A DNA stretch of 32,000 nt. Source: Microcystis aeruginosa NIES-843 (lineage in GTDB: Bacteria; Cyanobacteriota; Cyanobacteriia; Cyanobacteriales; Microcystaceae). Numbering within the stretch: the stretch's first letter is position 1; every line of letters starts with the position of its first letter. The stretch is taken from NCBI RefSeq assembly GCF_000010625.1, contig NC_010296.1:750001-782000 (forward strand). Direction: 5' to 3'. Positions 895-29,804 of the stretch are shown piece by piece. Below the pieces are notes generated by a model. The model was not told where the DNA came from. It did not search any database and saw only the letters and a list, made by a program, of their open reading frames with translations. A program made the position numbers and the translations under genes.

Positions 895-1245
895 CTAGGA
901 ATGGATGCGATAGCTGAGTAATTGTTCTTCGAGGGCGGCAATGCGATTGTAGGCCGCCGTCAATTGTGCCGTTAATCGGCGAATTTGGATTTCATCGGCA
1001 AAAGAATTATCGCCATTGACAGCTGGGGCTTGTTTGCCACCGTGATCCCGGAGAATATCTTTATGATCGTAGAGGCTATTATCGGATAACTCGGAAAAAC
1101 CGACCATTTCCAGGGATTCTCGCCTGGAATGACTCGATTTATCCCCAGCTAGGATAGCAATTTGCTGGCTGAGGCTTTCGACAATATCCTGTAGACGCTC
1201 GACTTTCTGCTCAAGACTGATAATCTGTTGTTGTAGTCCATTCAT
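895..1245 (-). CDS. hypothetical coiled-coil protein
   Basis: 116-aa ORF with heptad-like Leu/Ile/Gln-rich ends. No family recognised. Its stop abuts the exbD stop (convergent). Confidence 0.45.
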   Translation of the reverse strand: MNGLQQQIISLEQKVERLQDIVESLSQQIAILAGDKSSHSRRESLEMVGFSELSDNSLYDHKDILRDHGGKQAPAVNGDNSFADEIQIRRLTAQLTAAYNRIAALEEQLLSYRIHS

Positions 1246-1347
1246 GCAATTACCTAGGGATAAAGGAGGTTTCCCCTCTATGCTAGGCTCTGGAGGAAAT
1301 GGGCTATAACAATTTCTGATTGATTTAACGATCCCTTTACTGCCCTT

Positions 1348-1405
1348 AACGAAAATATGGCACGGGAAGTCCCCACACGAGACCGAAGCAGGATGGGGAT
1401 GTGCC
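1348..1405 (-). terminator. candidate intrinsic terminator downstream of csaB
   Basis: Minus-strand hairpin GGCAC..UCCCCA / UGGGGA..GUGCC (1359-1405) followed by AUAUUUUCGUU. It lies about 115 nt after the csaB stop. Confidence 0.35.
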
Positions 1406-1519
1406 GAGTGCCTCCTTTCCCCTTGATCAAAACCTATGCCACAACAAGGACTTAAGCATATTTTGAGACTTTTTAGAATGAAATAGCCCTGGCATCGGTA
1501 ATCGCACTCGACATAAAAA

Positions 1520-2557
1520 TTAGCTCACCAATCTAGATAAAATTTCTCGATGAATTAAAGCTCGATCGATTAAAAAATGTTTGCGATCGCTGGTTAATCC
1601 CTCTCCATTGGCATAAAAATCAATCCAAGTGGTACTAATATCATTAACTGCCTCTGGTAACTGATCTAATTCCCAACCCGGCATCGGTACTTCGGCAATT
1701 AATCGCGACACTTTCGGATCATAACTCAGGGCAAAACAACGACAATCTTCTGCTGCGGCCATAATTAAACTATGAAAGCGCATTCCGATCACCATTTCTA
1801 CCCCGCGAAATAAGCCTTTTAACTGTCTTGGATCCTCTAAACTAATGATTTTATGATTTTCCCTTAATTGACAGGCTACAGCTTCACAAAGGGGCAAATC
1901 CCGCGACTTTTGAAAAGGGACTAAGAGAATAAACGCCCCCGTACTGATTTGTAAATCAATTAAAGCTTGGGTTAATTTATCTAATTTTGCCGGGGTTAAT
2001 AGGGGATGGGGACGTAAATTGACGGCGATTCTTGGGGCGGGTAAATCCGATAATCCCTTGACTGATTGAGCGTCTAAAGCCCATACTGGATCGGGGGCAA
2101 CAATGGGATGAATACCCCAATTGGCGACTAAATGAGCCGAAGTATCATCGCGCACACTAACTAAACTACATTTTTGTAAAACTTTTTTGGTTAACCAACG
2201 GGTAAAAGGTCTATTTAATGGTCCAATTCCCTGCCCCCAAGCAATAGTTTTTAAGCCCAATAATTGAGCAAGAGCCATTAAACCACCGTAATAAATTGGA
2301 CTGGCAAAACTGGTGACATCCTGCATTAAACTGCCGCCACCCCAGATAAATATATCCGCTTTTTTCATAGTTTGAAAAACTTGCCACCAATCCCTACTAG
2401 GACAGGCTTCCACTCCATAACGTTGACTGGTTTCTCTGGGATTATTTGACAAAACAATAGGTTTAATTGCTGAGGGCAACATCTGCAATAGAGACACTAA
2501 TAATGCCTCATCTCCTCCGTTTCCTCTCCCATAATATCCACAAATTACTGCACGCAT
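1520..2557 (-). CDS. csaB: polysaccharide pyruvyl transferase CsaB
   Basis: 345 aa. The N-terminus MRAVICGYYGRGNGGDEALL and the overall length and pattern are typical of cyanobacterial CsaB pyruvyl transferases. Confidence 0.8.
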   Translation of the reverse strand: MRAVICGYYGRGNGGDEALLVSLLQMLPSAIKPIVLSNNPRETSQRYGVEACPSRDWWQVFQTMKKADIFIWGGGSLMQDVTSFASPIYYGGLMALAQLLGLKTIAWGQGIGPLNRPFTRWLTKKVLQKCSLVSVRDDTSAHLVANWGIHPIVAPDPVWALDAQSVKGLSDLPAPRIAVNLRPHPLLTPAKLDKLTQALIDLQISTGAFILLVPFQKSRDLPLCEAVACQLRENHKIISLEDPRQLKGLFRGVEMVIGMRFHSLIMAAAEDCRCFALSYDPKVSRLIAEVPMPGWELDQLPEAVNDISTTWIDFYANGEGLTSDRKHFLIDRALIHREILSRLVS

Positions 2558-2860
2558 ATATCAGTTATCAGTTATCAGTTATCAGTTATCAGTTCTCAGT
2601 TGTCAGTCAGAAAAAGGCAAGAGTCAAAAGGCAAAAGGCAAAAGTATGGTAAATTTGTCTCCTGTCTCCTGTCTCCTGTCTCCTTTGTCCTCTTTGTTAC
2701 TTTTTTCTTGAAAAATGTCCCTTAGTTTCTTAAGTTATGCTGTCAGCTACAAGTTAGCAGTGACCAGTTTTATTGGATTGCAGTTATCAGTTTATCTATT
2801 TTATTATTCCCACTCATAACTAATAGCTTAAACCTGATCAGTGATCACTGATCACTGATT
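2558..2860. repeat. intergenic block made of several different heptanucleotide tandem repeats (STRR-like)
   Basis: Read directly: (TCAGTTA)n 2561-2608, (AAAGGCA)-type units 2611-2644, (GTCTCCT)n 2657-2684, (CTGATCA)-type units 2834-2859. Confidence 0.85.
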
Positions 2861-3954
2861 TAGTCGTCCATTTGCCAGGGTTCGGTGATGTTTTTTTCAT
2901 CGAGGATATTTTTGGCTCTTAAAATCAAGACCAATTGACCTAGGATGGTGACATCGGGGGGACTATCAAACCATTGTAAAGAGACGGAATTATCTCTCTC
3001 TACTAGATAATAATTGTTCACGTCCCATTCAGCCAAAACTCGATCGATTACTAATAACACTTCCTCAGACCTAGTGGCAATCGATCGAGGTAATTGATCG
3101 CTAGGCCATAAAATCGCTACAGGATCGATCGCTTTGAGAATTGCTTGCCAACCGGGGAGAGGCACGATTGTTTGTTTATCCCCCACCGTTACCAGTCGAA
3201 AAGGTTCCTCGACGCTCAAACTTTCTGTGTGTTTTATATCAGTTACTGTCACCGGAAATCTTCCCACTAAAGGAATAATTCGGGCTAATTCGTCCTCATC
3301 CTGTAAACGATGGACGGGTAGCAACGGTGCGCTACGGGAGGGAGTAACGGTAAAATCTTGTAGTAAAGACTCGATCGCCTGTCTGGCCGAGTCAGAATGG
3401 GCAAATTTCAACCCTTTAGCGATTAATTTCGCTCTTTCGGCTAAATCTCGCTTTTGTTTGCCCCGTTTCCAACACTGGTAAGCGATCGCATCTCCAGGAT
3501 GACGGGTAAATTCACTGGGAATCTGGGATAAACGGGAAAAATCTTGGATAGCTTTGGCGATATCGTGTGCTTCAGCCACCTCAATCCTTTTTTCTGCCGC
3601 TAATTTCGCTGCCCCTAGTCTTTGTTCTTGGTTGAGAATCCGCAATTCGTATAGCACATCACTGCGCGGCCCGATGTAGTAACTTAACAAATCTTCAGCT
3701 GCTCCCGCTTTGATTAAACTCTCAAAAACTTGGGCAGCGACAATAATTAAATTTTGTTGGGCATTTTGAAACCCAGTTTGTTCAAAAATTAACTGGGAAT
3801 CGTAGCCAGCTTTTTGCAGTTTTTGACATTTTTGCCCCCAATTCACCCAATTTCCTTCCTTATGAAGCAGCGAGCGCATTAATTCGGTCGCTTCCGTTTC
3901 GCTGATTCGATCATCTGTACTGCGAGGCTGTTCTGTCATAGACAACTTGATCAA
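2860..3954 (-). CDS. raf1: RuBisCO accumulation factor 1 (Raf1)
   Basis: 364 aa. The N-terminal region ...LMRSLLHKEGNWVNWGQKCQKLQKAGYDSQLIFEQTGFQNAQQNLIIVAAQVFESL matches my recollection of cyanobacterial Raf1. Divergent neighbour of a carboxysome shell gene. Confidence 0.7.
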   Translation of the reverse strand: MIKLSMTEQPRSTDDRISETEATELMRSLLHKEGNWVNWGQKCQKLQKAGYDSQLIFEQTGFQNAQQNLIIVAAQVFESLIKAGAAEDLLSYYIGPRSDVLYELRILNQEQRLGAAKLAAEKRIEVAEAHDIAKAIQDFSRLSQIPSEFTRHPGDAIAYQCWKRGKQKRDLAERAKLIAKGLKFAHSDSARQAIESLLQDFTVTPSRSAPLLPVHRLQDEDELARIIPLVGRFPVTVTDIKHTESLSVEEPFRLVTVGDKQTIVPLPGWQAILKAIDPVAILWPSDQLPRSIATRSEEVLLVIDRVLAEWDVNNYYLVERDNSVSLQWFDSPPDVTILGQLVLILRAKNILDEKNITEPWQMDD

Positions 3955-7365: not shown

Positions 7366-8202
7366 ATGACTAAAAAGAATCAATCAAAAAGATTAACGAA
7401 TCAACATAAAGAGTCTAAAGGTGTAGTTGGTATATTTGGAGATGAAGCAAAATCACACGACATAACTGTTGGAAAAATTTCACTTTTTGTAATTGAACAG
7501 CTTGAAAAGGAGTTTCCTCAATTATCTTTTCAATACAAAACGAGCATAAAAAAAGAAGAAATAAACGAAGCATTAAAGAAAATTGACCCAGAATTAGGAC
7601 AAACACTTTTTGTATCAAATTCAAGTATTATACCCGATGGTGGAATAATAGAAGTAAAAGATGATAACGGTAATTGGAGAATCGTTTTAGTTTCGGAAGC
7701 TAAACATCAGGGGAAAGACATTGAAAACATCAAAGCAGGAAAACTTGTAGGAGCAAAAAATGATCAAGATTTGATGGCTGCTGGTAATGCGATAGAAAGA
7801 TCCCATAAAAACATATCTGAAATCGCTAATTTGATGTTATCTGAATCTCATTTTCCCTATGTATTATTTCTAGAAGGCTCAAATTTTTTAACAGAAACTA
7901 TTTCAATTAAAAGACCCGATGGAAGGGTTGTAACGCTTGAATACAATTCAGGAACGCTAAATAGATTAGATAGGTTAACTTCTGCAAATTATGGAATGCC
8001 CATTAATACCAATTTGTGTAAAAATAAGTTTGTCAAGCATAAAGATAAAACAATTATGCTTCAAGCAACTTCTATATACACACAAGGAAATGGCGAAAAA
8101 TGGGATGTCAAAAAAATGTTTGATATTATGCTTGAAATTTCTAAAACCTCTCTTAAAGTATTAGGCAGTGAGATATTTAATCAGATAACCAAAAGTAAAT
8201 AA
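7366..8202 (+). CDS. ecoRIR: type II restriction endonuclease, EcoRI family (predicted GAATTC specificity)
   Basis: 278 aa, collinear with my recollection of E. coli R.EcoRI over its whole length (QSKRLTNQHK.., SFQYKTSIKKEEINEALKKIDPELG, PDGGIIEVKDD..LVSEAKHQGKD, MAAGNAIERSHKNISEIANLMLSESHFPYVLFLEGSNF). The catalytic D91, E111 and K113 sit at the same positions. Confidence 0.9.
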   Translation: MTKKNQSKRLTNQHKESKGVVGIFGDEAKSHDITVGKISLFVIEQLEKEFPQLSFQYKTSIKKEEINEALKKIDPELGQTLFVSNSSIIPDGGIIEVKDDNGNWRIVLVSEAKHQGKDIENIKAGKLVGAKNDQDLMAAGNAIERSHKNISEIANLMLSESHFPYVLFLEGSNFLTETISIKRPDGRVVTLEYNSGTLNRLDRLTSANYGMPINTNLCKNKFVKHKDKTIMLQATSIYTQGNGEKWDVKKMFDIMLEISKTSLKVLGSEIFNQITKSK

Positions 8203-8239
8203 CTAAAACAAAGATTTATTAAATCAAAATAGGTTGAAA

Positions 8240-9250
8240 ATGGCAAGAAATGCAACAAACGAATTATTACAAAAAGCTAAAAAATCAAAAAGTGACGAGT
8301 TTTATACACAGCTTTCAGATATAGAAAGCGAATTACAGCATTATAAAAGTCATTTTGAAAATCAAGTAGTTTATTGCAATTGCGATGACCCCCGAATTAG
8401 TAACTTTTTTAATTATTTTACCTCAAATTTCAATGAATTAGGTCTTAAAAAAATAATAACATCTTGTTATAGAGAGCAAGTAAAAAATTTATTTAATACA
8501 GAAGAAGATGAAAAAGGGTTTTTCTTTGAATATACAGGTACAGAAGGGGAAAAAAACAAACCAAGTTCAACTGACCTAGTTTACTTTAATGGAGATGGTG
8601 ATTTTCGTAGTTCGGAAAGCATTGAACTATTAAAGCAGTCCGATATTGTTGTTACCAATCCCCCATTTTCATTATTCAGAGAGTATGTAGCTCAATTGGT
8701 TAAATACGATAAAAAGTTTTTGATAATTGGAAATATTAATGCAATAACCTATAAAGAAATTTTCAAACTTATTAAAGAAAACAAGGCGTGGTTAGGAATA
8801 AATCTTGGTAGAGGTATTTCAGGTTTTATTGTACCTGAACACTATGAACTATATGGAACAGAAACTCGAATAGATAACTCTGGTAATAGAATAATCTCAC
8901 CGAACAATTGTTTATGGCTTACTAATTTAGATAATTTTAAGCGGCACGAAGATATAAAACTTACAAAAAGATATTTTGGCAACGAAGTTCAATATCCAAA
9001 ATATGACAATTATGATGGGATTAATATTAATAAAACACAAGACATACCAATAGATTATAAGGGATATATGGGGGTGCCAATAACATTTTTACATAAATTT
9101 AATCCCGACCAATTTGAAATAATTAAATTCAGGAAAGGGAATGATGATAAAGATTTATCAGTAAATGGGAAATGTCCGTATTTTAGAATACTAATAAAGA
9201 ATAAACGAATACAAACTGAATATATTGATTTAACTGACAAAGAAAGATAA
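8240..9250 (+). CDS. ecoRIM: N6-adenine DNA methyltransferase, M.EcoRI family
   Basis: The N-terminus MARNATNELLQKAKKSKSDEFYTQ and the motif SDIVVTNPPFSLFREY..KYDKKFLIIGN match M.EcoRI as I recall it. The R-then-M order is the same as in the EcoRI operon. The ORF track starts at TTG 8234, but ATG 8240 fits the homolog. Confidence 0.9.
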   Translation: MARNATNELLQKAKKSKSDEFYTQLSDIESELQHYKSHFENQVVYCNCDDPRISNFFNYFTSNFNELGLKKIITSCYREQVKNLFNTEEDEKGFFFEYTGTEGEKNKPSSTDLVYFNGDGDFRSSESIELLKQSDIVVTNPPFSLFREYVAQLVKYDKKFLIIGNINAITYKEIFKLIKENKAWLGINLGRGISGFIVPEHYELYGTETRIDNSGNRIISPNNCLWLTNLDNFKRHEDIKLTKRYFGNEVQYPKYDNYDGININKTQDIPIDYKGYMGVPITFLHKFNPDQFEIIKFRKGNDDKDLSVNGKCPYFRILIKNKRIQTEYIDLTDKER

Positions 9251-9912: not shown

Positions 9913-10154
9913 TGTTTCTTCTGGATACGAATATTTGGCTAGAACGCTTATTAGGACAAGCACAGGCGGAGGTTGTTGCGGAGCTACTTGATACGCTCTC
10001 ACCGTCTGATATGTGTATGACTGATTTTACTTTACATTCTATCGCGGTGATCTGCAATCGGCTGAATCAACGAGAGGTTTTTATCAAATTTGTGGATGAC
10101 GTTTTGATTGATGCTGGTGTTGTACTGGTCAGTATTCCTGCTAATGGGACTTAA
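9897..10154 (+). pseudogene. PIN-domain (VapC-like) toxin, C-terminally truncated
   Basis: It has the N-terminal PIN signature VFLLDTNIWLERLL but is only 85 aa. The reading frame runs into repeat family C and is then cut by the IS701-family insertion at 10145. The distal acidic PIN residues are absent. Confidence 0.6.
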
Positions 10155-10187
10155 ACAAATTTCAAGCCCAAACAAAGCCTAAACTGG

Positions 10188-10369
10188 GGGAGCATCTCAC
10201 TTACGCGATAAGTAATTATACTTAGCCTAAAAGCCACTCTTAATCGTGTCTTGGAACGAAATAGAGGCTTTTAAAGACTGCGTACATGGAGAATTAAAAC
10301 AAGAATTACCCTCGAAAAGCCTATTTTTCCACTAAGTATTTATGCTCATTGCAAAGGTGAGATGCTCCC
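10188..10369 (+). mobile_element. 182-bp MITE (family A) derived from the ISKra4/ISLre2-like IS, copy 1
   Basis: It shares both termini with the IS at 5778-7039 (GGGAGCATCTCACTTA.. / ..TTGCAAAGGTGAGATGCTCCC) and has no ORF. Flanked by the 8-bp direct repeat TAAACTGG (10180-10187, 10370-10377). Identical to 28326-28507. Confidence 0.85.
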
Positions 10370-11467
10370 TAAACTGGCTTTGTAAGCGGCAAACACATCC
10401 CGATTCTCGGTCAGCCACTCAAAGAAACGGAAAGACATCGCTGTCCGAAAAGCTTCCAAGGCTTCCACAAAAGTGTTTAAAGGTCGATTCGCCCACTGCC
10501 TTTGCAATCCCCCAGTTAACTTATGCCACAGGATAAATGTATAGGCACAAAACACCAGGATAAAATGACGAAGTAAGCTTCGTTTATCCCTGACTTGATA
10601 TTCCCTTAACCCTAACCATCCTTTGGCTTCTCGGTAGAATACTTCCACCCAATTTCTTTCGGTGTAAGTCCTCACTATCCACGAAGCTGTTACTGTATCT
10701 GCCTCAACTACATTGGTGATGAAATAGTCCACCTCTGTGGCTTTTTCCATTGAACTTGCATTCATGACGATCGCCAAGTTCCTTTCTCCTTCTAGTTGAG
10801 ATATTTTCGCTCTGAATACCGCTACCCAAACCGTTTTCTCTTTATCTAGATTTAGGGTGATTTTCTCCCAATCCTTTTCTGATAGGCTTTTTGCTAGTTG
10901 CTCAAGCTGGATTGTTTCTTCCACACCCCCTTCTTTTTCAATAATTACTTTTCGATTTTTTGCCAATCCTCCTAAGTATTTTAGCTTTCTTTCTTCCAGG
11001 GCTTTGAGAAAATTTGTGTTGTTGCCATAACCAGCATCTATTAAGACGATTTTCGGTCGATAGCCTCTGGTTAAGCTCCGGTCAATTAAATCTATCGCTA
11101 TCTCTGGTTTCTTCTTAAATTCTTTGTCTTCTTTCCCCTCGGCTAAGGAACTAGCCGGTTGATAAATTTCAATGTCTAGGGGGACACTTTTTTTGCCGTC
11201 GTAGAGATGAGTAGTGACGGCGACTATTCCGTTGTCTGTCTTGCCAATTTCTCCTAGGTACTGCCTGCCAACTCCGGCGGTCAGATTGCCACTTTTTCGA
11301 TGTCCTGAGTCATCGACAATCAGGGAAAATCCTCGGGGGATTTGCGTCTGGCGGCATTGGTTCATCACTTGCAACCGACATTCATTCACCTGACGGTCTG
11401 ACCAAGGAGATTCGGTCAAAAAGTGATGTAATCGGTTATAAACTACTCCGACGGCATTATTGGCCAT
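10346..11467 (-). pseudogene. IS701-family DDE transposase, interrupted (largest fragment)
   Basis: Carries LHHFLTESPWSD and the DDSG..DAGYG.. pattern. The ancestral ORF is restored as complement(10162-10179, 10370-11515, 12520-12624), about 422 aa (MKETTPAAMPPCFDRWCRRFD...FRQYLGGLLGESERKNLTQMANNAV...ASLGFVWA), by deleting both MITEs plus one copy of each target duplication. Confidence 0.8.
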
Positions 11468-11515
11468 TTGAGTGAGGTTTTTCCTCTCACTTTCCCCTAA
11501 TAATCCTCCTAAATA

Positions 11516-12513
11516 GGGCTGGCTGAATAAATCTAAAAACCTTGTTGGATAAGACTTTTGGACTTTTTTCCCCTCAAAAAGTACCAGATATGGGAGTGAT
11601 CAGGGGTAAATTCAGGGACTTTTTCCCTGAAAATTAGGTAATTGACCCCCTCAAAATCGGTAAAACCCCACACCCGTTACAGTAGAGCAGGAAGTCGCCT
11701 TCCCACCCCCTGCTTCAAAACCGGACTTACGACTTTCGCCGTATCCGGCTCCTGAGTAACTAGGCTACTGTCATTAGTAGAATAATAATGGGAATTATTA
11801 TTTCCTTGTCTATTCAACCCTCTTGGCTGTATCCCCACCAGACAAGATTGTTGGTTTTAGGGCGTATATGACCGTTGATTGTTGCTTAGACTTCCTAGTT
11901 ACCCGTCCTTTGTCAGCATATCTTTGATATTACTCAAAGCCTTGGCTTTTAAGGACATCCTCTCCCTCTATTGACTTGCGGATGGTTTCCTACTGCCCCG
12001 AACGGGCAGAGTCAATCAGGGTTACTTCGTTCCCTATAACCATTGGTTGAACCCTTAGGATGATACTGTCCACAACAGAGTAACGGGAATGCCTTACTGA
12101 TAGTGGTATGAGCTATCAGCCCCAACTCTGTTAACTTTTGTTTCGAGCCTGTCAGCCTTTTGGCTCGTGGGTGTTGACGATGGTTAATTCGTATCTTCGC
12201 CCCAGGGCTATCCATAGGTTCTGGCTCAACGGGTTTCTGATTTAGGCTATCAGATACCGCTTTTTTTTTCCTCGCTCACTACCTCAGATGTACCAAGTCT
12301 AAAGCAGCAGGAAATGCCGTCACTCTAGGCATCTAGAGGACAGGACTAAGGTTATTACTAACCCGCACCTGTAGGGTTATAAAGTTATCAAGGTACTACA
12401 TTTACCAAGCGGCTAATCCTCTAAACGTCTTACTGTCTAGTTTCTAGCCAACGAATCGCACCACACCCCACACCCTACACCCTGCCCCTAGGAAAAACTT
12501 TTTCAGCAGACCC
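11516..12513 (+). mobile_element. MITE family B copy, itself carrying a group II intron
   Basis: 11516-11675 and 12462-12513 align with the complete copy at 23778-23991. Flanked by the direct repeat TAAATA (11510-11515, 12514-12519). Confidence 0.7.
11676..12461 (-). ncRNA. ORF-less group II intron (786 nt)
   Basis: The minus strand starts GTGCGA (12461 downward). Domain V is GAGCCGGAUACGGCGAAAGUCGUAAGUCCGGUUU (complement 11718-11751), with the AGC triad, a 2-nt bulge and a GAAA loop. A domain VI hairpin with a bulged A follows, and the 3' end reads ..CUACUGUAAC at 11676. Domain IV is a short AT-rich stub with no RT ORF. Confidence 0.8.
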
Positions 12514-12701
12514 TAAATATTGTCTGAAGCCGTTTTTTTGCGCTTCGTTTTTGAAGCAATTGTCAAACCGCCGACACCATCGGTCAAAGCATGGGGGCAT
12601 TGCGGCTGGGGTTGTCTCTTTCATCGCTGATCTTTCAACGTAAAGTGCTTACTCTTTAACGATTATACTCGATTTGATCTTTATTTGGCGTTTAAGTCCC
12701 A

Positions 12702-12760
12702 CTAATAGATTTTTGGGGAACGCACCATGCACATTGATTGAAACTGTGGGTTAAAGTGCG
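12702..12760 (+). repeat. repeat family C, copy B (3' part; the 5' part lies left of the IS701 insertion at about 10113-10144)
   Basis: CTAATAGATTTTTGGGGAACGCACCATGCACATTGATTGAAACTGTGGGTTAAAGTGCG is identical to the corresponding part of copy A. Confidence 0.65.
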
Positions 12761-12814: not shown

Positions 12815-13117
12815 ATGGTTAAATCAACTTTGTACAGGACAGCAAAAGTCCTACCGGGAAATAGAATTGAAATTGAATCTCCAGATCTGACTGTAGGACA
12901 AACTGTTGAGGTAGTTATTTTGGTTGAAGAAGTTAGTTCTGATTCTTCTACCAGCGAATATATCTCTCCATCCTTAAAACAGCGTCTTGCTTTTCTGAAG
13001 TTACCAATGACTGAACGGAGGAATATTCTCAAAAGTCAAGCCGATATAATGCTCTCTCACTATCAACAAGATTCTGAATGGCAGGAGTTAATGGCAGGTG
13101 ACATCATTGAGTATTAA
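12815..13117 (+). CDS. putative MazE-like antitoxin
   Basis: 100-aa ORF overlapping the downstream MazF/PemK ORF by 20 bp. Small acidic C-terminal half. Assignment rests on operon context. Confidence 0.6.
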   Translation: MVKSTLYRTAKVLPGNRIEIESPDLTVGQTVEVVILVEEVSSDSSTSEYISPSLKQRLAFLKLPMTERRNILKSQADIMLSHYQQDSEWQELMAGDIIEY

Positions 13118-13472
13118 CCCTGAGCTGCCAAAACGTGGAGAAATTTGGTTAGTCAACTTCGATCCTACTGTTGGTGCAGAAATCAAAAAATTGCGTCCTG
13201 CCGTCGTCATCAGTTCCGATTCAGTAGGAAAGCTTCCTATCAAGCTTATTGCTCCTATTACAGACTGGAAAACATATTTTTCAGCAAATTTATGGCACGT
13301 TAAAATTGAACCTAACAGTATCAATGGATTGAATAAAGCTTCTGCAATTGATACTCTTCAACTAAGAGGGGTGGATTTACAAAGGTTTATTCGTAAATTA
13401 GGAAGCGTTTCTGAAATTACAATACTGGAAATTGTAGCCTCCATTGCTACTGTAATCGAATTTGAGGTCTAA
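13098..13472 (+). CDS. mazF: MazF/PemK-family mRNA interferase toxin
   Basis: PKRGEIWLVNFDPTVGAEIKKLRPAVVISSD is the canonical PemK/MazF N-terminal motif. About 120 aa. Confidence 0.85.
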   Translation: MTSLSINPELPKRGEIWLVNFDPTVGAEIKKLRPAVVISSDSVGKLPIKLIAPITDWKTYFSANLWHVKIEPNSINGLNKASAIDTLQLRGVDLQRFIRKLGSVSEITILEIVASIATVIEFEV

Positions 13473-13834: not shown

Positions 13835-14110
13835 ATGGATAGAAGCATTATAGAACGGCAACCGCTACTTGAAGCAGTCAAGGCTCTCCCTGATGAGGCT
13901 TTAGTGGAACTGTCTAATTTTCTGGACTATCTTCGCTATAAAGCAGCCCATCAAAGAGAACTGACCACTCATTCTTCTAGTTTTCTGCTTGCAGTTGCAG
14001 GTTTAGGCAACTCTGGTCAACAGGATATTTCAGAACGTGATGAAGAGATTCTAGGCAATGAGATTGATCCGGTGTCCGGCTGGAATCTTAACCCAAGCAA
14101 TTCAGTATGA
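13835..14110 (+). CDS. putative VapB-type antitoxin
   Basis: 91-aa ORF with a 4-bp ATGA overlap onto the downstream PIN gene. The N-terminal LPDEALVELSNFLDYLRYK helix motif is common in cyanobacterial antitoxins. Confidence 0.6.
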   Translation: MDRSIIERQPLLEAVKALPDEALVELSNFLDYLRYKAAHQRELTTHSSSFLLAVAGLGNSGQQDISERDEEILGNEIDPVSGWNLNPSNSV

Positions 14111-14520
14111 CGGCGATACTTGACACCAGTTTTTTGTTTGCCTTGACCGATCAGGGCGATCGCAATCATCAACGGGTGTTGGCTATTGCTCAAAGCGTGA
14201 ATGAGCCATTGGTTCTACCTGTCGTTGTCCTGCCTGAGGTCTGCTATCTGATTGCATCAAGATTGAGCCACCAAGCAATGCGCCGTTTTGTATCCAGTAT
14301 GACACCTGATGCGGTTCAAGTTGAACCTGTAATCCCAGAAGACTTGGTACGAGTGCATGAGATATTGGAACAATATGCTGACAATCAGCTTGACTTTACA
14401 GATGCAGCGATCATTGCCATAGCTGAAAGGCTTACTATTACTCGCGTTTACACACTTGATCGCCGAGATTTTTCGATTATTCGTCCAAGTCACTGCGATT
14501 ACTTTGAGTTATTTCCTTGA
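14107..14520 (+). CDS. vapC: PIN-domain ribonuclease toxin VapC
   Basis: 137 aa with the full set of PIN acidic residues in the expected contexts (ILDTS, LPE, FTDAA, TLDRRDF). Confidence 0.85.
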   Translation: MTAILDTSFLFALTDQGDRNHQRVLAIAQSVNEPLVLPVVVLPEVCYLIASRLSHQAMRRFVSSMTPDAVQVEPVIPEDLVRVHEILEQYADNQLDFTDAAIIAIAERLTITRVYTLDRRDFSIIRPSHCDYFELFP

Positions 14521-14792: not shown

Positions 14793-14851
14793 CACACCCC
14801 ACACCCCACACCCCACACCCTACCCCCACGAAAAACTTTTTCAGCAGACCC
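14793..14851 (+). repeat. MITE family B fragment (heptamer-tract end)
   Basis: CACACCCCACACCCCACACCCCACACCCTACCCCCACGAAAAACTTTTTCAGCAGACCC matches the right end of copies 23778-23991 and 11516-12513. Weaker similarity may extend upstream to about 14725. Confidence 0.55.
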
Positions 14852-18007: not shown

Positions 18008-18200
18008 AGGGTTTGCGGCAAAAAGTTTTTCGTGGGGGTAGGGTGTGGGGTGTGGGGTGTGGGGTGTGGGGTTTTACCAGTTTTGAGGTGGCCAATTACC
18101 TAATTTTCAGGGAAAAAGTGCCTAAATTTCCCCCACTTTTTGATTTCAAAAAAGCCTAAAGATATTATCCAACAAGGTTTTTAGCTTTATTCAGTAAACC
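18008..18200 (-). mobile_element. MITE family B copy (inverted orientation)
   Basis: GGGTTTGCGGCAAAAAG..(GGGGTGT)n..TTATTCAGTAAACCC aligns end to end with 23778-23991. It begins 2 bp after the hydantoinase stop codon. Confidence 0.75.
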
Positions 18201-18206
18201 CTACAT

Positions 18207-19527: not shown

Positions 19528-20223
19528 TTAATTTAAACCGGGGGGCAATTTTTCCCGACACTGTTGATGAATTTCCCCGATTCTAGCAAACAACCAGGGA
19601 TATTTTTGACGATAACTGGGAATTAGAGCCAGAGGACTGAGTAGGGCAGTGGCGGCAATATCGGCTACACTTAATTTATCCGCCACCAAATAGGGCTGAT
19701 TTTGCCAATATTCTAGAATCTTGAGGGCATTTTCTAGTCGCTCCTCCGCTAGTTTTACCCTTGCCGGGGTGATTTTATATTGTTGTCCCACGATATTAAT
19801 AATTATTTGACTACTCAGGGAAGGATCGATCGCTTTTCCCTCTCCGGCGCGATAATTATAATAGACAAATCTAGTCGCTACTCCAATACTTTCATCTAAC
19901 CAATCCTCTAGTAACCAAGCTTGATTTTTCTCCTTTTCCCCAGCGGGAATAAAAGAGGGGAAAGGAACTACTTTTTCTAAATATTTTAAAATGGCAGTAG
20001 AATCGGCAATAATCTCATCTGCTGCCATTAAAACGGGGACAGTGGTTAACCCTTTGGTTAGGGACCTGAGTTTGAGAATATGTAGTCCGGGGGTGAGATT
20101 TTCTACTTGGTAATCAATCCCCTTATAACCTAGGGCTAAACGAGCTTTGCGACAGTAATGAGATGTGCTAAATTGAAGTAAAAGCATTAAGTGTTGTTGG
20201 TTGCTATAGTAGTTATCAGTCAT
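19528..20223 (-). CDS. glutathione S-transferase family protein
   Basis: Thioredoxin-like GST N-domain (LLQFSTSHYCRKARLALGYKGIDYQ..TVPVL) and a helical C-domain. The likely true start is the internal ATG at 20187 (MLLLQF). Confidence 0.7.
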   Translation of the reverse strand: MTDNYYSNQQHLMLLLQFSTSHYCRKARLALGYKGIDYQVENLTPGLHILKLRSLTKGLTTVPVLMAADEIIADSTAILKYLEKVVPFPSFIPAGEKEKNQAWLLEDWLDESIGVATRFVYYNYRAGEGKAIDPSLSSQIIINIVGQQYKITPARVKLAEERLENALKILEYWQNQPYLVADKLSVADIAATALLSPLALIPSYRQKYPWLFARIGEIHQQCREKLPPGLN

Positions 20224-20310
20224 CAGTTATCAGTTATCAGATTTGAGTTTTAAGTTAACTGATCACTGTTTACTGATCACTGTTTACTGAATTGGCAATA
20301 GGTCTATACT

Positions 20311-23777: not shown

Positions 23778-23991
23778 GGGTTGGCTGAATAAATCTAAAA
23801 ACCTTGTTGTATAAGACTTTTAGACTTTTTTCCCATCAAAAAGTGCCAGACATTGGGGTGATCGGGGGGGAAATTTAGGCACTTTTTCCCTGAAAATTAG
23901 GTAATTGACCCCCTGAAAATGGGTAAAACCCCACACCCCACACCCCACACCCCACACCCTGCCCCCACGAAAAACTTTTTGCCGCAAACCC
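23778..23991 (+). mobile_element. MITE family B, complete copy
   Basis: Termini GGGTTGGCTGAATAAA.. / ..TTTTTGCCGCAAACCC, an internal (CCCCACA)n tract and no ORF. 7-bp direct repeat TAGTATA at 23771-23777 and 23992-23998. Confidence 0.8.
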
Positions 23992-24998: not shown

Positions 24999-25000
24999 TG

Positions 25001-25153
25001 GTGTGGGAAGTGGGGTGTGGGGTGTGGGGTGTGGGAAGTGGGAAGTGGGAAGTGGGGTGTGGGGTGTGGGGTGTGGGGTGTGGGGTGTGGGGTGTGGGGT
25101 GTGGGAAGAATAAATAAAAATAATCTCCTGACGACCGACGACCGACGACCGAC
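25001..25153. repeat. heptanucleotide tandem repeats (GGGGTGT / GGGAAGT, then ACGACCG)
   Basis: Counted by eye: 25005-25108 holds 10 GGGGTGT and 5 GGGAAG(T) units. 25131-25153 holds (ACGACCG)x3. Confidence 0.9.
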
Positions 25154-25320
25154 TCCCGATCACTGATTAATAACTTGTCAAGAAATCACGATAAATCAAC
25201 TAGAGATTATCTGAGGCATTGAGTATAATCAAACACATAGATTAGGGGAAATTGCTCATAAATCAGTCCGATCGAGCGTGAATCCTCTTTTATTTTTTAG
25301 TCGTAGACTAAGGAAATATC

Positions 25321-28584: not shown

Positions 28585-29804
28585 TAGACCTCTTGCATAA
28601 TTTTTTTATGGTATAATATAAGGTTTTGCTTTTTTCTCAATTCTTAGATTGAAGTGGAAAAAAGAATAAAATGTGATCTTAGGTCAGGAAATCATCTATA
28701 ATTTTGCTATGTTTATTAGCAAAATTATGGATTATCAAAACTTATCAGATGAACAATTCAAACGCCGTTTCGGTGTGTATAAACAAACATATAGAAAGAT
28801 GGTAGAATCAGTAAAAAGTGTTGAAGCCGACTCTAATTCACCATCTAAAAGGGGACCGAAACCTAAACTATCTATAGAAGAACAAGTTTTAGTAACGTTA
28901 GAATATTGGCGAGAATATAGAACATATTTTCACATTGGTACAAGCTGGGAACTATCAGAATCAACTATATGTCGGATTGTAAATAAGACGGAAAAAATGC
29001 TTTTACAATCGGGAAACTTCCGTTTAAAAGGAAAAAAAGCTTTACTCAATCAAGCAGAGATACCGGTCATAACGGTAATGGATGTAACGGAAACTCCCAT
29101 TGAACGCCCCCAAAAGAAACAGAAAGATTTTTTGGGGGGTAAAAGAGGTTATCATACTTTAAAATCCCAATTAGTAGCTGATCAAAATACAAAGGAAATT
29201 ATCTGTGTCTTTTGTGGGAAAGGTAGAGGTCATGATTTTAGTTTATTTAAAAAAAGTCGAGTTCGTTTTCATCCTTTAACTACCAGCATAGAAGACAGTG
29301 GTTATCAGGGAATAGCTGCATACCATAGTAATAGTTATACACCGAAAAAGAAATCGAAAAATAGAAAATTAACAGAGTTAGAAAAAGAGTATAACAAGGC
29401 TTTAGCCAAAGAAAGGATTATCATTGAACCTATAAATAGGAAACTCAAAATCTTTAAAATCTTATCCTGTAAATATCGGAATCGTCGTCGAAGATATAGT
29501 TTAAGAGTTAACTTGTTGGCGGCTATTTATAACTGTGAGTTAGGGATAGGTATAGCAGCTTCTTAAAAGTTGCCTAAAGATTAATCAAGTCAAGGAGAAT
29601 TTATTCTCAATTTTTATAATTGAGATAGTTTGTGCCGCTTAAATAAAGAGGTTTTGATAACCAAATTAAAGCAGCTCTAAAGAGTTTTGAGTTAAAAGTT
29701 AAACTTCAAGTTTTCATTCAGGACAAATGTACTGATTAACTAATTTTTTGGGGAAAATTAGTTAACCCATCATTATAACATATAATTAATTTGCAAGAGT
29801 TCTA
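28585..29804 (+). mobile_element. IS5-family-like insertion sequence
   Basis: Terminal inverted repeats TAGACCTCTTGCATAATT (28585-) and AATTTGCAAGAGTTCTA (-29804) enclose a single DDE transposase ORF. The target duplication is not resolved. Confidence 0.65.
28727..29566 (+). CDS. DDE transposase (IS5-family / DDE_Tnp_4-like)
   Basis: N-terminal HTH region (KRGPKPKLSIEEQVLVTLEYWREY), then D (VMDVTE), D (EDSGYQG) and E (ERIIIEPINRKLK) blocks. ATG 28727 is preferred over the GTG at 28673. Confidence 0.75.
   Translation: MDYQNLSDEQFKRRFGVYKQTYRKMVESVKSVEADSNSPSKRGPKPKLSIEEQVLVTLEYWREYRTYFHIGTSWELSESTICRIVNKTEKMLLQSGNFRLKGKKALLNQAEIPVITVMDVTETPIERPQKKQKDFLGGKRGYHTLKSQLVADQNTKEIICVFCGKGRGHDFSLFKKSRVRFHPLTTSIEDSGYQGIAAYHSNSYTPKKKSKNRKLTELEKEYNKALAKERIIIEPINRKLKIFKILSCKYRNRRRRYSLRVNLLAAIYNCELGIGIAAS

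What the first reader, a model, noticed from the sequence alone, without database searches (positions are those of the whole stretch)
11676..12461. ORF-less group II intron whose exon-binding sites match a heptamer repeat
The intron is 786 nt on the minus strand. It has a GUGCG 5' end, a textbook domain V, a domain VI with a bulged A, and no reverse-transcriptase ORF. It interrupts the (GGGGTGT)n tract of a MITE exactly: the 5' exon ends ..GGGTGTGGGGTGTG and the 3' exon starts GGGTGTGGGGTTTTACC. Candidate EBS1 is CATACC, in the loop of the hairpin CTGATAG-CTCATACCA-CTATCAG (complement of 12105-12110). It pairs with the last six exon nucleotides GGUGUG with one G-U pair. Candidate EBS2 is ACACCC (complement of 12169-12174), which pairs with the upstream GGGUGU. 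An intron aimed at a multicopy simple repeat carried by a MITE would have many potential homing sites. It must rely on an intron-encoded protein supplied in trans.
Basis: partly seen in the sequence, partly recalled or inferred. Interest (0 to 1): 0.75.

Follow-up and report, generated by a model that had tools for sequence, protein, structure and literature searches.

The report
ORF-less intron homing to heptamer repeats
This is a real 786-nt self-splicing (group II) intron that has lost its own reverse-transcriptase gene, and its two guide sequences match a GGGGTGT repeat common in Microcystis genomes; it is a neat new example of a known kind of selfish element, not a new kind of system.

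Summary
Window 12461→11676 (minus strand) is a group II intron:
- It starts with GUGCG.
- Rfam RF00029 matches domains V and VI over the full model (55 bits, gathering score 40).
- Domain VI has a bulged A 8 nt from the 3' end.
- The fold z-score is -5.8, and no ORF exceeds 67 aa.

A 99.6-99.8% identical copy of the host IS::MITE in another genome (L140) lacks exactly these 786 nt. That is a precise filled-site/empty-site pair.

There those loops covary with each intron's own 5' exon at -6..-1 and -14..-9. The cognate pairing is the single best of 40,320 permutations.

At least eight sibling insertions in Microcystis genomes and metagenomes all follow GGGTGT(A/G)GGGTGT(G/A) and precede GGG. 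They occur in MITE and non-MITE arrays, so the target is the heptamer, not the MITE.

The intron is an ORF-deletion derivative. I found no RT with its domain V/VI-encoded C-terminus among 5.8 billion protein clusters. The resident Microcystis RT-HNH intron homes to tnpB and has a different domain V and EBS1, so mobilisation in trans is inferred, not shown.

Verdict: new member of a known kind with an unusual target.

The parts
11676..12461 (-). ORF-less group II intron, 786 nt (intron nt n = 12462 - window coordinate)
   Evidence: GUGCG 5' end; RF00029 hit; z-score -5.8; exact filled/empty pair with L140
12457..12461 (-). 5' splice-site consensus GUGCG
   Evidence: Read directly; conserved in all relatives aligned
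12462..12467 (-). IBS1 GGUGUG (5' exon -6..-1)
   Evidence: Pairs with EBS1 at 6/6 positions including one G-U; conserved in 8 of 9 sibling 5' exons
12471..12476 (-). IBS2 GGGUGU (5' exon -14..-9), followed by a 2-nt unpaired spacer at -8 and -7
   Evidence: Pairs with EBS2 at 6/6 positions; relatives use the same -14..-9 position; -8 varies A/G among siblings
12169..12174 (-). EBS2 ACACCC (intron nt 288-293), in the loop 5' of hairpin CGAGCC/GGCUCG in subdomain ID
   Evidence: Homologous columns covary with exon -14..-9 in L095 (6/6), L034 (6/6), L073 (5/6), L103 (5/5) and Fremyella (5/6)
12097..12119 (-). EBS1 hairpin CUGAUAG-CUCAUACCA-CUAUCAG; EBS1 CAUACC = 12105-12110 (intron nt 352-357)
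   Evidence: Terminal 9-nt loop of a long ID stem in the MFE and centroid folds; the homologous loop pairs with exon -5/-6..-1 in Fremyella, L059, L095, L089 and the Microcystis tnpB intron
11754..11904 (-). Domain IV with ORF remnants. The former start codon region is ATATACG at about intron nt 590-600, where the Fremyella intron has ATATATG. The C-terminal remnant continues into domain V.
   Evidence: Alignments; tblastn match of RT residues 571-598 to intron nt 666-749, E 0.002
11718..11751 (-). Domain V, GAGCCGGAUACGGCGAAAGUCGUAAGUCCGGUUU, with the AGC triad and a GAAA loop
   Evidence: RF00029 alignment
11679..11713 (-). Domain VI helix with GCGA loop; bulged branch-point A at 11683; the intron ends ...CUGUAAC
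   Evidence: RF00029 alignment and MFE fold
11673..11675 (-). First 3 nt of the 3' exon, GGG (+1 G is the presumed IBS3)
   Evidence: All seven sibling 3' exons start with GGG
11516..12513 (-). Host MITE, about 211 bp without the intron. Imperfect TIR GGGTCTGCTGAAAAAG / GGGCTGGCTGAATAAA. Target-site duplication TATTTA(G) at 12514-12519 and 11510-11515.
   Evidence: Alignment with intact copies at 18009-18201(+) and 23778-23991(-), the latter with TSD TATACTA
10145..12701 (-). Host IS (DDE_5 / IS701-like transposase). Terminal IR TGGGACTTAAAC. 4-bp TSD TTAG at 12702-12705 and 10141-10144. The transposase gene is split by the MITE between ...FRQYLG and GLLGESERKN.
   Evidence: Pfam DDE_5 4.6e-35; comparison with L140, where the same IS::MITE has TSD CTAG
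18009..18201 (+). Intron-less sibling MITE with three unoccupied target sites
23778..23991 (-). Intron-less sibling MITE with three unoccupied target sites

Best explanation
Window 12461→11676(-) is a IIB-type (chloroplast-like lineage) group II intron that has lost almost all of its reverse-transcriptase/maturase ORF. It keeps all six ribozyme domains.

Its EBS2 (ACACCC) and EBS1 (CAUACC) base-pair with GGGUGU-NN-GGUGUG, which is one and a half units of the GGGGTGT heptamer repeat. The intron RNA reverse-splices after ...GGGTGTG and before GGG wherever two such units lie in tandem. This holds both in MITEs that carry the repeat and in free-standing intergenic arrays.

In the window it entered a MITE that had already inserted into an IS701-like transposase gene, giving IS ⊃ MITE ⊃ intron.

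Shown: ribozyme identity, exact boundaries, the EBS/IBS pairing register, multiple independent insertions into the same motif, and derivation by ORF deletion.

Inferred: that splicing and mobility need a maturase/RT supplied in trans by another intron (a 'driver' IEP, as for the ORF-less TeI3 introns of Thermosynechococcus elongatus), and that the family is still mobile.
For: Ribozyme:
- RF00029 scores 55 bits against a gathering score of 40 over the full model.
- The 5' end is GUGCG, domain VI has a bulged A, and the intron ends in AC.
- MFE is -259.5 kcal/mol, z = -5.8.
- Domains I-III align block by block with RT-encoding introns from Fremyella, Hormoscilla and Microcystis.

Exact excision site:
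- L140 (AP019314.1) carries the same IS::MITE at 99.6-99.8% identity without the 786 nt.

EBS assignment:
- Among 8 related introns, the cognate EBS1+EBS2 versus exon score is the unique maximum of 40,320 permutations.
- Mean score is 9.0 for cognate pairs and 5.3 for non-cognate pairs.
- Relatives also show the 2-nt spacer.

Target specificity:
- Nine independent 5' junctions all end GGGTGT(A/G)GGGTGT(G/A): window, L121, L122, L123/126, L124, L125, L127, L145.
- Seven 3' junctions all start GGG.
- Distal flanks differ, and both MITE and non-MITE arrays are hit.

Recent spread:
- Full-length siblings are 98.5-99.6% identical.

ORF deletion:
- The start-codon region is retained with ATG changed to ACG, and a C-terminal remnant is present.

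Precedent for trans mobilisation:
- PMC2882425.

Candidate IEP source:
- Microcystis genomes encode RT-X-D-HNH intron proteins.
Against: - No RT-encoding sibling was found. The peptide encoded by domains V/VI finds only two tiny Microcystis ORFs among 5.8 billion protein clusters.
- A metagenome scan with the 5' 29-mer found only ORF-less or IS-broken copies.
- The resident Microcystis RT intron has a different domain V and a different EBS1 (GAUAGA), and shows no blastn similarity to this intron. A driver IEP would therefore need relaxed specificity.
- Occupancy is low: 17 perfect unoccupied sites against 1 occupied in 32 kb.
- Some siblings are decayed or broken by IS elements (L144, L122, L123).
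- No Rfam D1-D4 model reaches its gathering score. The best is RF01999 at 24.5 bits against 36.
- EBS3/IBS3 could not be assigned.
- Splicing was not tested.
Confidence: 0.82

Rival explanations
1. The intron is an immobile relic. Its copies multiplied passively by transposition of MITE::intron or IS::MITE::intron composites, and by recombination or gene conversion between heptamer arrays. The EBS match would then only record one ancient homing event.
For: - The window and L124 carry the intron at the same heptamer register in the same MITE type at different loci.
- The IS::MITE composite itself exists at two or more loci.
- No cognate RT was found.
- Several copies are decayed or disrupted.
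- Most target sites are empty.
Against: - The intron occurs at three different registers in MITEs (window/L124, L069, L145).
- It also occurs in at least five non-MITE contexts with unrelated distal flanks.
- L140 shows that the IS::MITE existed without the intron.
- Full-length copies keep every catalytic element and are 98.5-99.6% identical.
- Recombination between arrays would not by itself keep the junction fixed at the EBS-predicted nucleotide in every case.
Confidence: 0.13
2. The intron splices and moves without any intron-encoded protein, by self-splicing and protein-independent reverse splicing, or it uses a host factor rather than a group II RT.
For: There is no cognate RT in the databases. 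The ribozyme is compact and strongly structured.
Against: From established knowledge: cDNA synthesis in retrohoming needs an RT, and bacterial IIB introns need a maturase under physiological Mg2+. Microcystis does encode group II RTs. Domain IVa, the usual IEP-binding region, is retained.
Confidence: 0.04
3. The EBS/heptamer complementarity is a chance match in a G/T-rich context, and the feature is not a functional intron.
For: Short 6-mers complementary to a low-complexity exon are easy to find in 786 nt. No D1-D4 Rfam model passes its gathering score.
Against: - The two 6-mers sit in the loops that covary with exons across relatives, 1 of 40,320 permutations.
- Every sibling junction matches.
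- The RF00029 hit and the filled/empty pair support a real intron.
Confidence: 0.01

Closest known systems
ORF-less TeI3 introns of Thermosynechococcus elongatus (subgroup IIB1; Mohr, Ghanem & Lambowitz 2010, PMC2882425)
   Same: - Cyanobacterial IIB introns derived from an RT-encoding ancestor by deletion of the ORF in domain IV, with N- and C-terminal ORF remnants.
- Multi-copy.
[quoted passage not shown]
- Often located in other mobile DNA.
   Different: - In T. elongatus the driver IEPs are encoded by closely related TeI4 introns in the same genome, and mobility was shown experimentally.
- Here no close RT-encoding sibling was found, and the only resident RT intron identified is a diverged lineage.
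- The target here is a simple tandem heptamer, not a unique site.
RT-HNH-encoding intron on Fremyella/Tolypothrix plasmids (L129; AP018240.1) and its Nostocales/Oscillatoriales relatives
   Same: - It is the closest sequence relative found: 77% identity over the first 86 nt.
- Domains I-III are alignable, with the same positions for EBS1, EBS2 and the 2-nt spacer.
- Its ORF runs through domain V, which explains the C-terminal remnant here.
   Different: - It encodes a 607-aa RT-X-D-En protein.
- Its EBS1 and EBS2 (UUCUG, AACGCA) target a unique plasmid sequence.
- Its domain V upper helix differs.
Resident Microcystis RT-HNH group II intron that homes to IS605-type tnpB genes (P0160/P0162; L147-L150)
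   Same: - Same host genus and the same structural family.
- It also targets a multicopy mobile element.
- It is a possible source of a trans-acting IEP.
   Different: - Domain V is GAGCGGUGUGAGGUGAAAGUCUCACGCACCGUUU.
- EBS1 is GAUAGA, pairing with UCUAUC.
- It shows no blastn-level similarity to the ORF-less intron.
- Its RT is 59% identical to the Fremyella RT.
Group II introns that home to repeated genomic elements. From my own knowledge, not tested here: RmInt1 in ISRm2011-2; class C introns after terminators or in attC sites; archaeal introns in other introns.
   Same: The strategy of choosing a multicopy, mostly non-essential target, which gives many safe homing sites.
   Different: - Those targets are IS genes or structured motifs that are partly recognised by shape.
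- Here the target is a 15-nt stretch of a tandem heptanucleotide repeat, read by ordinary EBS1/EBS2 pairing.

Membership tests
Group II intron (ribozyme) | Domain V: a 34-nt helix with the AGC triad, an asymmetric bulge and a GNRA loop | tested here: met
   RF00029 scores 55 bits (gathering 40) over the full model. The sequence is GAGCCGGAUACGGCGAAAGUCGUAAGUCCGGUUU.
Group II intron (ribozyme) | Domain VI with a bulged branch-point A 7-8 nt from the 3' splice site; 3' end AY | tested here: met
   The bulged A is at nt 779 of 786 and the intron ends ...CUGUAAC.
Group II intron (ribozyme) | 5' GUGYG | tested here: met
   GUGCG at 12461-12457(-).
Group II intron (ribozyme) | EBS1 and EBS2 loops in domain I complementary to the last ~14 nt of the 5' exon | tested here: met
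   Both pair 6/6. Relatives covary at the same positions, and the cognate assignment is the best of 40,320 permutations.
Group II intron (ribozyme) | A domain I-IV covariance model match | tested here: not met
   No Rfam D1-D4 model reaches its gathering score; RF01999 scores 24.5 bits against 36, E 0.017. This is offset by direct alignment of domains I-III to bona fide RT-encoding introns.
Group II intron (ribozyme) | Splicing (ligated exons, lariat) | not testable with these tools
   Needs RT-PCR or RNA-seq. The only indirect evidence is the precise filled/empty DNA pair.
Subgroup IIB / chloroplast-like lineage | EBS3 in the coordination loop pairing with +1 of the 3' exon; an IEP of the CL class | tested here: inconclusive
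   - +1 is G in all siblings, but no column covaried cleanly with +1 among 6 relatives.
- The architecture (EBS2 loop, three-segment ID stem, terminal EBS1 loop) is as in IIB.
- Domain V also matches the plastid ndhA/ndhB domain V model RF04356 at 41.7 bits, below its gathering score of 61.
- The relatives' RTs are RT-X-D-HNH.
- The exact class (CL1 or CL2) was not determined.
ORF-less deletion derivative of an RT-encoding intron | No RT ORF, with recognisable ORF remnants flanking a deletion in domain IV | tested here: met
   - No ORF exceeds 67 aa.
- The start region ATATACG corresponds to ATATATG in Fremyella.
- The C-terminal remnant gives E 0.002, although much of that similarity is imposed by domain V.
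Mobile (retrohoming) intron mobilised in trans | A compatible IEP in the same cell, and demonstrated new insertions | not testable with these tools
   - Multiple independent insertions and the filled/empty polymorphism argue for past mobility.
- No cognate RT was found.
- A diverged resident RT intron exists in the genus.
MITE (host element) | Short, non-coding, with terminal inverted repeats, a target-site duplication and multiple copies | tested here: met
   - About 211 bp, with an imperfect ~16-bp TIR.
- TSD TATTTA(G) here and TATACTA at 23778-23991.
- Three or more copies in the window and more in L069, L121, L124, L125 and L145.
IS701-like insertion sequence (outer host) | DDE_5 transposase, terminal IRs, short TSD | tested here: met
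   PF13546 at 4.6e-35. IR TGGGACTTAAAC. 4-bp TSD TTAG here and CTAG in L140. Assignment to the IS701 family is from the Pfam domain and my own knowledge, not from ISfinder.

The most novel reading that the evidence does not exclude
A lineage of group II introns in Microcystis has specialised on a simple tandem heptanucleotide repeat, GGGGTGT, as its homing site. Every pair of repeat units is then a target, and arrays and repeat-bearing MITEs serve as an abundant 'safe haven'. The lineage persists with no RT gene of its own anywhere in sampled diversity. It is propagated by a relaxed-specificity 'driver' IEP from an unrelated resident intron that homes to tnpB. If so, this would be a natural example of a fully non-autonomous retroelement, a SINE-like group II intron parasitising both a simple-sequence repeat and a heterologous RT.
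Probability: 0.4. Interest if true: 0.6.

Novelty: new member of a known kind. Interest (0 to 1): 0.45.

Why it matters
- It adds a clean, well-delimited case of how group II introns survive in bacterial genomes. The intron shed its ORF and chose a highly repeated, harmless target.
- A target made of tandem identical units is unusual. The full-text library I could search held no paper describing a group II intron that homes to a heptanucleotide repeat. Such a target gives a simple natural system for asking how site choice within an array, IEP contacts and occupancy are controlled.
- The apparent absence of any cognate RT makes it a candidate SINE-like group II intron dependent on a heterologous driver protein.
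- There is a practical consequence. These copies are unannotated, or called as 53-61-aa hypothetical proteins. They also break Microcystis assemblies: contigs L056, L069, L125, L126 and L127 end inside the intron.

Tried and rejected
- Rfam D1-D4 models gave no hit at gathering score.
- A blastn search of the plasmid collection with the intron found only short 5'-end or domain V matches in Nostocales. These were useful as relatives, not as siblings.
Only two true siblings came out of it.
- Viral-contig scans with the EBS1 hairpin and the exact domain V sequence gave 0 hits.
- An RT-profile scan of viral contigs gave 9 loci, none related to this intron.
- A protein search with the Fremyella RT returned 120 top hits, all from other cyanobacteria and none from Microcystis.
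- A tblastn search of the plasmid collection with the same RT found no Microcystis hit among the 60 best records listed.
- A search with the 53-aa remnant ORF, meant to catch an RT sharing the domain V/VI-encoded C-terminus, found only two small Microcystis ORFs. I therefore rejected the idea that a close autonomous parent is present in the sampled data.
- A search with the Gloeothece RT finally found Microcystis RTs. Their intron is a different lineage that homes to tnpB. I rejected it as the direct parent but kept it as a possible driver.
- The EBS3/IBS3 assignment by covariation was unresolved.
- A global pairwise alignment to define the deletion breakpoints misaligned the middle of the intron. 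The breakpoints are therefore only approximate.
- An exact-protein look-up of the 373-aa truncated transposase found nothing on record, so the window's own strain was not identified.
- I looked for a rule governing which heptamer unit is chosen (first complete site, or last unit). None holds across all copies.
Full report
**1. Observation**

On the minus strand the sequence reads ...AGGGTGTGGGGTGTG | GTGCGATTCG ... CTCTACTGTAAC | GGGTGTGGGGTTTTACC. The intron is window 12461→11676, 786 nt.

- Rfam's group II domain V/VI model RF00029 matches 11753-11676(-) end to end. It scores 55.0 bits against a gathering score of 40, and it is the only gathering-level RNA hit in the 32-kb window.
- The alignment shows a canonical domain V: GAGCCGGAUACGGCGAAAGUCGUAAGUCCGGUUU, with the AGC triad and a GAAA loop.
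- Domain VI has a bulged UA. This places the branch A at intron nt 779 (window 11683), 8 nt from the 3' end.
- No D1-D4 Rfam model passes its threshold. RF01999 reaches 24.5 bits against 36.
- The longest ORF inside the intron is 67 aa.
- The RNA folds to -259.5 kcal/mol, 5.8 sd below dinucleotide shuffles. The fold has a six-domain layout in which CUCAUACCA is the 9-nt terminal loop of a long domain I stem.

**2. The host: three nested mobile elements**

The flanks translate to an IS701-like DDE_5 transposase (PF13546, 4.6e-35). Its reading frame...FRQYLG|GLLGESERKN..., is split by a ~211-bp element.

- That element has imperfect terminal inverted repeats and a TATTTA(G) target duplication.
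- Intact intron-less copies occur in the same window at 18009-18201(+) and 23778-23991(-), the latter with TSD TATACTA. A partial copy lies near 14850. It is a MITE.
- Deleting the 786 nt regenerates exactly the (A/G)GGGTGT×4-GGGGTTTTACC tract of the intact copies.
- The IS itself spans 10145-12701(-), with IR TGGGACTTAAAC and TSD TTAG.

**3. Filled site versus empty site**

The 49-aa N-terminal transposase fragment, which runs into the MITE, was looked up by exact sequence. It returned GenBank AP019314.1 (L140).

- L140 matches window 12704-12461 at 99.6% identity and window 11675-10368 at 99.8%.
- L140 reads ...GGGTGTAGGGTGTGGGGTGTGGGGTGTGGGGTTTTACC across the junction.
- So the same IS::MITE exists without the intron, at a different genomic site (TSD CTAG). 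The intron boundaries are exact.

**4. Are the proposed EBS1 and EBS2 the real ones?**

The closest RT-encoding relative found is an intron on Fremyella/Tolypothrix plasmids (L129:3501-5927). Its first 86 nt are 77% identical, and its 607-aa ORF is RT-X-D-HNH.

I aligned domain I of the window intron with the Fremyella intron and six Hormoscilla introns whose RTs are 50-57% identical to the Fremyella RT.

| Intron | EBS2 column / exon -14..-9 | EBS1 loop / exon -6 or -5..-1 |
|---|---|---|
| L095 | CGUACA/UGUACG (6/6) | AUCCA/UGGAU |
| L034 | CAUUAA/UUAAUG (6/6) | weak (contiguous run of 1) |
| L073 | 5/6 | 5/6 incl. 2 G-U (run score 3.5) |
| L103 | 5/5 | weak (3 bp) |
| Fremyella | AACGCA/UGCGCU (5/6) | UUCUG/CAGAA |
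| L059 | weak (run score 3) | UCAAG/CUUGA |
| L089 | weak (run score 3) | UUGACU/AGUCGA |
| Microcystis tnpB-homing intron | no clear pairing at -14..-9 | GAUAGA/UCUAUC |

I scored contiguous pairing of these regions against every exon. The cognate assignment is the single best of all 40,320 permutations (mean 9.0 for cognate pairs against 5.3 for non-cognate).

The 2-nt gap between IBS2 and IBS1 is a family trait. It also fits the A/G variation at -8 among siblings. I could not assign EBS3.

**5. Siblings and their contexts**

The source is Microcystis.

- The 3' 102-115 nt are 100% identical to contig ends of an M. aeruginosa MAG (L056, L069).
- A metagenome scan with the 5' 29-mer gave seven contigs (L121-L127).
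- The remnant-ORF search led to M. aeruginosa PCC 9443 (L145) and another MAG (L144).
- Full-length ORF-less copies (L121, L124, L145) are 98.5-99.6% identical to the window copy.

All nine independent 5' junctions end GGGTGT(A/G)GGGTGTG, except L125, which ends ...GTGTA. All seven 3' junctions begin GGG. The contexts differ:

- The same MITE type at other loci and at three different heptamer registers (window/L124, L069, L145).
- Long free-standing arrays and compound repeat modules that are not MITEs (L121, L056, L122, L123/126, L127, L144).

So the specificity is for the heptamer, not for the MITE.

Within the window, the motif GGGTGT[AG]GGGTGTGGG occurs 17 more times unoccupied, so occupancy is low. 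Some siblings are dead:

- L123 is split at about nt 115 by an IS630-like element.
- L122 is broken at nt 140.
- L144 lacks domains II-III and domain V.

**6. Origin and the missing RT**

tblastn with the Fremyella RT finds no RT anywhere in the window or in about 90 kb of Microcystis loci. It finds only a 28-aa match (E 0.002) where the ancestral ORF ran through domain V. The ORF start region is retained with ATG changed to ACG. This is the pattern described for the ORF-less TeI3 introns of T. elongatus (PMC2882425).

In this family the ORF ends inside domains V/VI, so an RT-encoding sibling would share the C-terminal peptide ...EPDTAKVVSPVLKQGVGRRLPALL. A search of 5.8 billion protein clusters with that remnant found only two small Microcystis ORFs.

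The literature reports seven group II RTs in M. aeruginosa NIES-843, six of them near-identical and fused to an HNH domain (PMC8934634). I recovered this kind of protein (P0160/P0162, 586 aa, 59% identical to the Fremyella RT) and its DNA from four genomes.

- Its intron always sits in the 5' end of an IS605-type tnpB gene.
- Its domain V and EBS1 differ from those of the ORF-less intron.
- It shares the overall architecture but has no blastn-level similarity.
- It is not the parent of the heptamer intron, but it is the only candidate IEP source identified in the genus.

**7. Mechanism**

Shown:
- The element is a complete IIB-type ribozyme.
- Its guide loops pair with GGGUGU-NN-GGUGUG.
- It has inserted repeatedly and precisely at that motif.

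Inferred from established group II biology:
- The intron is transcribed with its host array. In the window it is in the sense orientation of the disrupted transposase gene.
- It is spliced with the help of a maturase.
- It reverse-splices as an RNP into double- or single-stranded DNA at the heptamer.
- It is copied by an RT supplied in trans.

Whether a Microcystis IEP accepts this RNA is untested. A relic that spread partly by hitch-hiking on MITE or IS transposition remains possible for some copies, notably the window/L124 pair. It cannot explain the range of registers and non-MITE contexts.

**8. Comparison and novelty**

ORF-less bacterial group II introns, their mobilisation by driver IEPs, and homing into other mobile DNA are all known (PMC2882425, PMC8919778; and from my own knowledge RmInt1/ISRm2011-2 and class C introns). 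This element differs in two ways: its target is a tandem heptanucleotide repeat, and it appears to have no cognate RT. I found no description of either for Microcystis in the searchable library.

I file it as a new member of a known kind with an unusual niche, of moderate interest.

Noticed in passing
window ~10188-10367 (-): A second, unrelated MITE of about 180 bp lies inside the 3' end of the same IS and alters the transposase C-terminus. It has a perfect 13-bp TIR (GGGAGCATCTCAC) and TSD CCAGTTTAG(G). It is absent from the otherwise 99.8% identical IS copy in L140.
   Followed up: partly
window 18208-~18420 (+): A variant of the host MITE has the same left end (GGGTTTGCTGAAAAAGTTTTTCC) but carries GGAGTCA heptamers instead of GGGGTGT. 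It starts 6 bp after the MITE at 18009-18201. The MITE family seems to carry interchangeable heptamer cassettes.
   Followed up: no
window 25000-25159 (+); also 2559-2684, 20211-20290: These are compound intergenic modules: one heptamer array, a short spacer (GGGAAGAATAAATAAAAATAATCT), then a different heptamer array. A sibling intron (L121) sits exactly at the end of the first array of such a module. The window copy at 25000-25105 offers 8 unoccupied target sites.
   Followed up: partly
L147-L150 (M. aeruginosa NIES-2549 and other assemblies), intron about 956-3335 in each locus: The resident Microcystis RT-HNH group II intron is inserted at the same position in the 5' end of IS605-type tnpB genes in four genomes and three different loci. 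The exon reads ...KAFKYRIYP|TDQ..., and EBS1 GAUAGA pairs with UCUAUC. This is a second Microcystis intron lineage that homes to a multicopy mobile element.
   Followed up: partly
L123:3411-4555; L122:12611 onward: Sibling copies of the ORF-less intron are themselves disrupted. An IS630-like element (HTH plus DDE ORFs) sits at intron nt ~115 in L123. An element similar to window 28634-29804 sits at nt 140 in L122.
   Followed up: partly
L144:1-289 (M. aeruginosa MAG SFBG01000073.1): This is a decayed sibling that lacks intron nt 427-580 (domains II-III) and most of domain V. Its EBS1 loop variant is CUUAUACCA. It lies in a non-MITE GGGGTGT array followed by GGGAATTATGAATTATG repeats.
   Followed up: no
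window 7366-9250 (+); 13098-13472 (+); 14107-14520 (+): The window carries an EcoRI-type restriction endonuclease and methylase pair (Pfam 1e-151 and 2e-130), a PemK/MazF toxin and a PIN-domain toxin. Between the methylase and the PemK gene the window has the IS::MITE::intron, whereas AP019314.1 (L141) has five other genes there.
   Followed up: partly
L034, L089, L103 (Hormoscilla MAG loci): Several RF00029 hits lie within a few kb on both strands, and the RT ORFs are interrupted. This suggests nested or tandem group II introns (twintron-like arrangements) in Hormoscilla, where the same domain V pattern occurs dozens of times.
   Followed up: no
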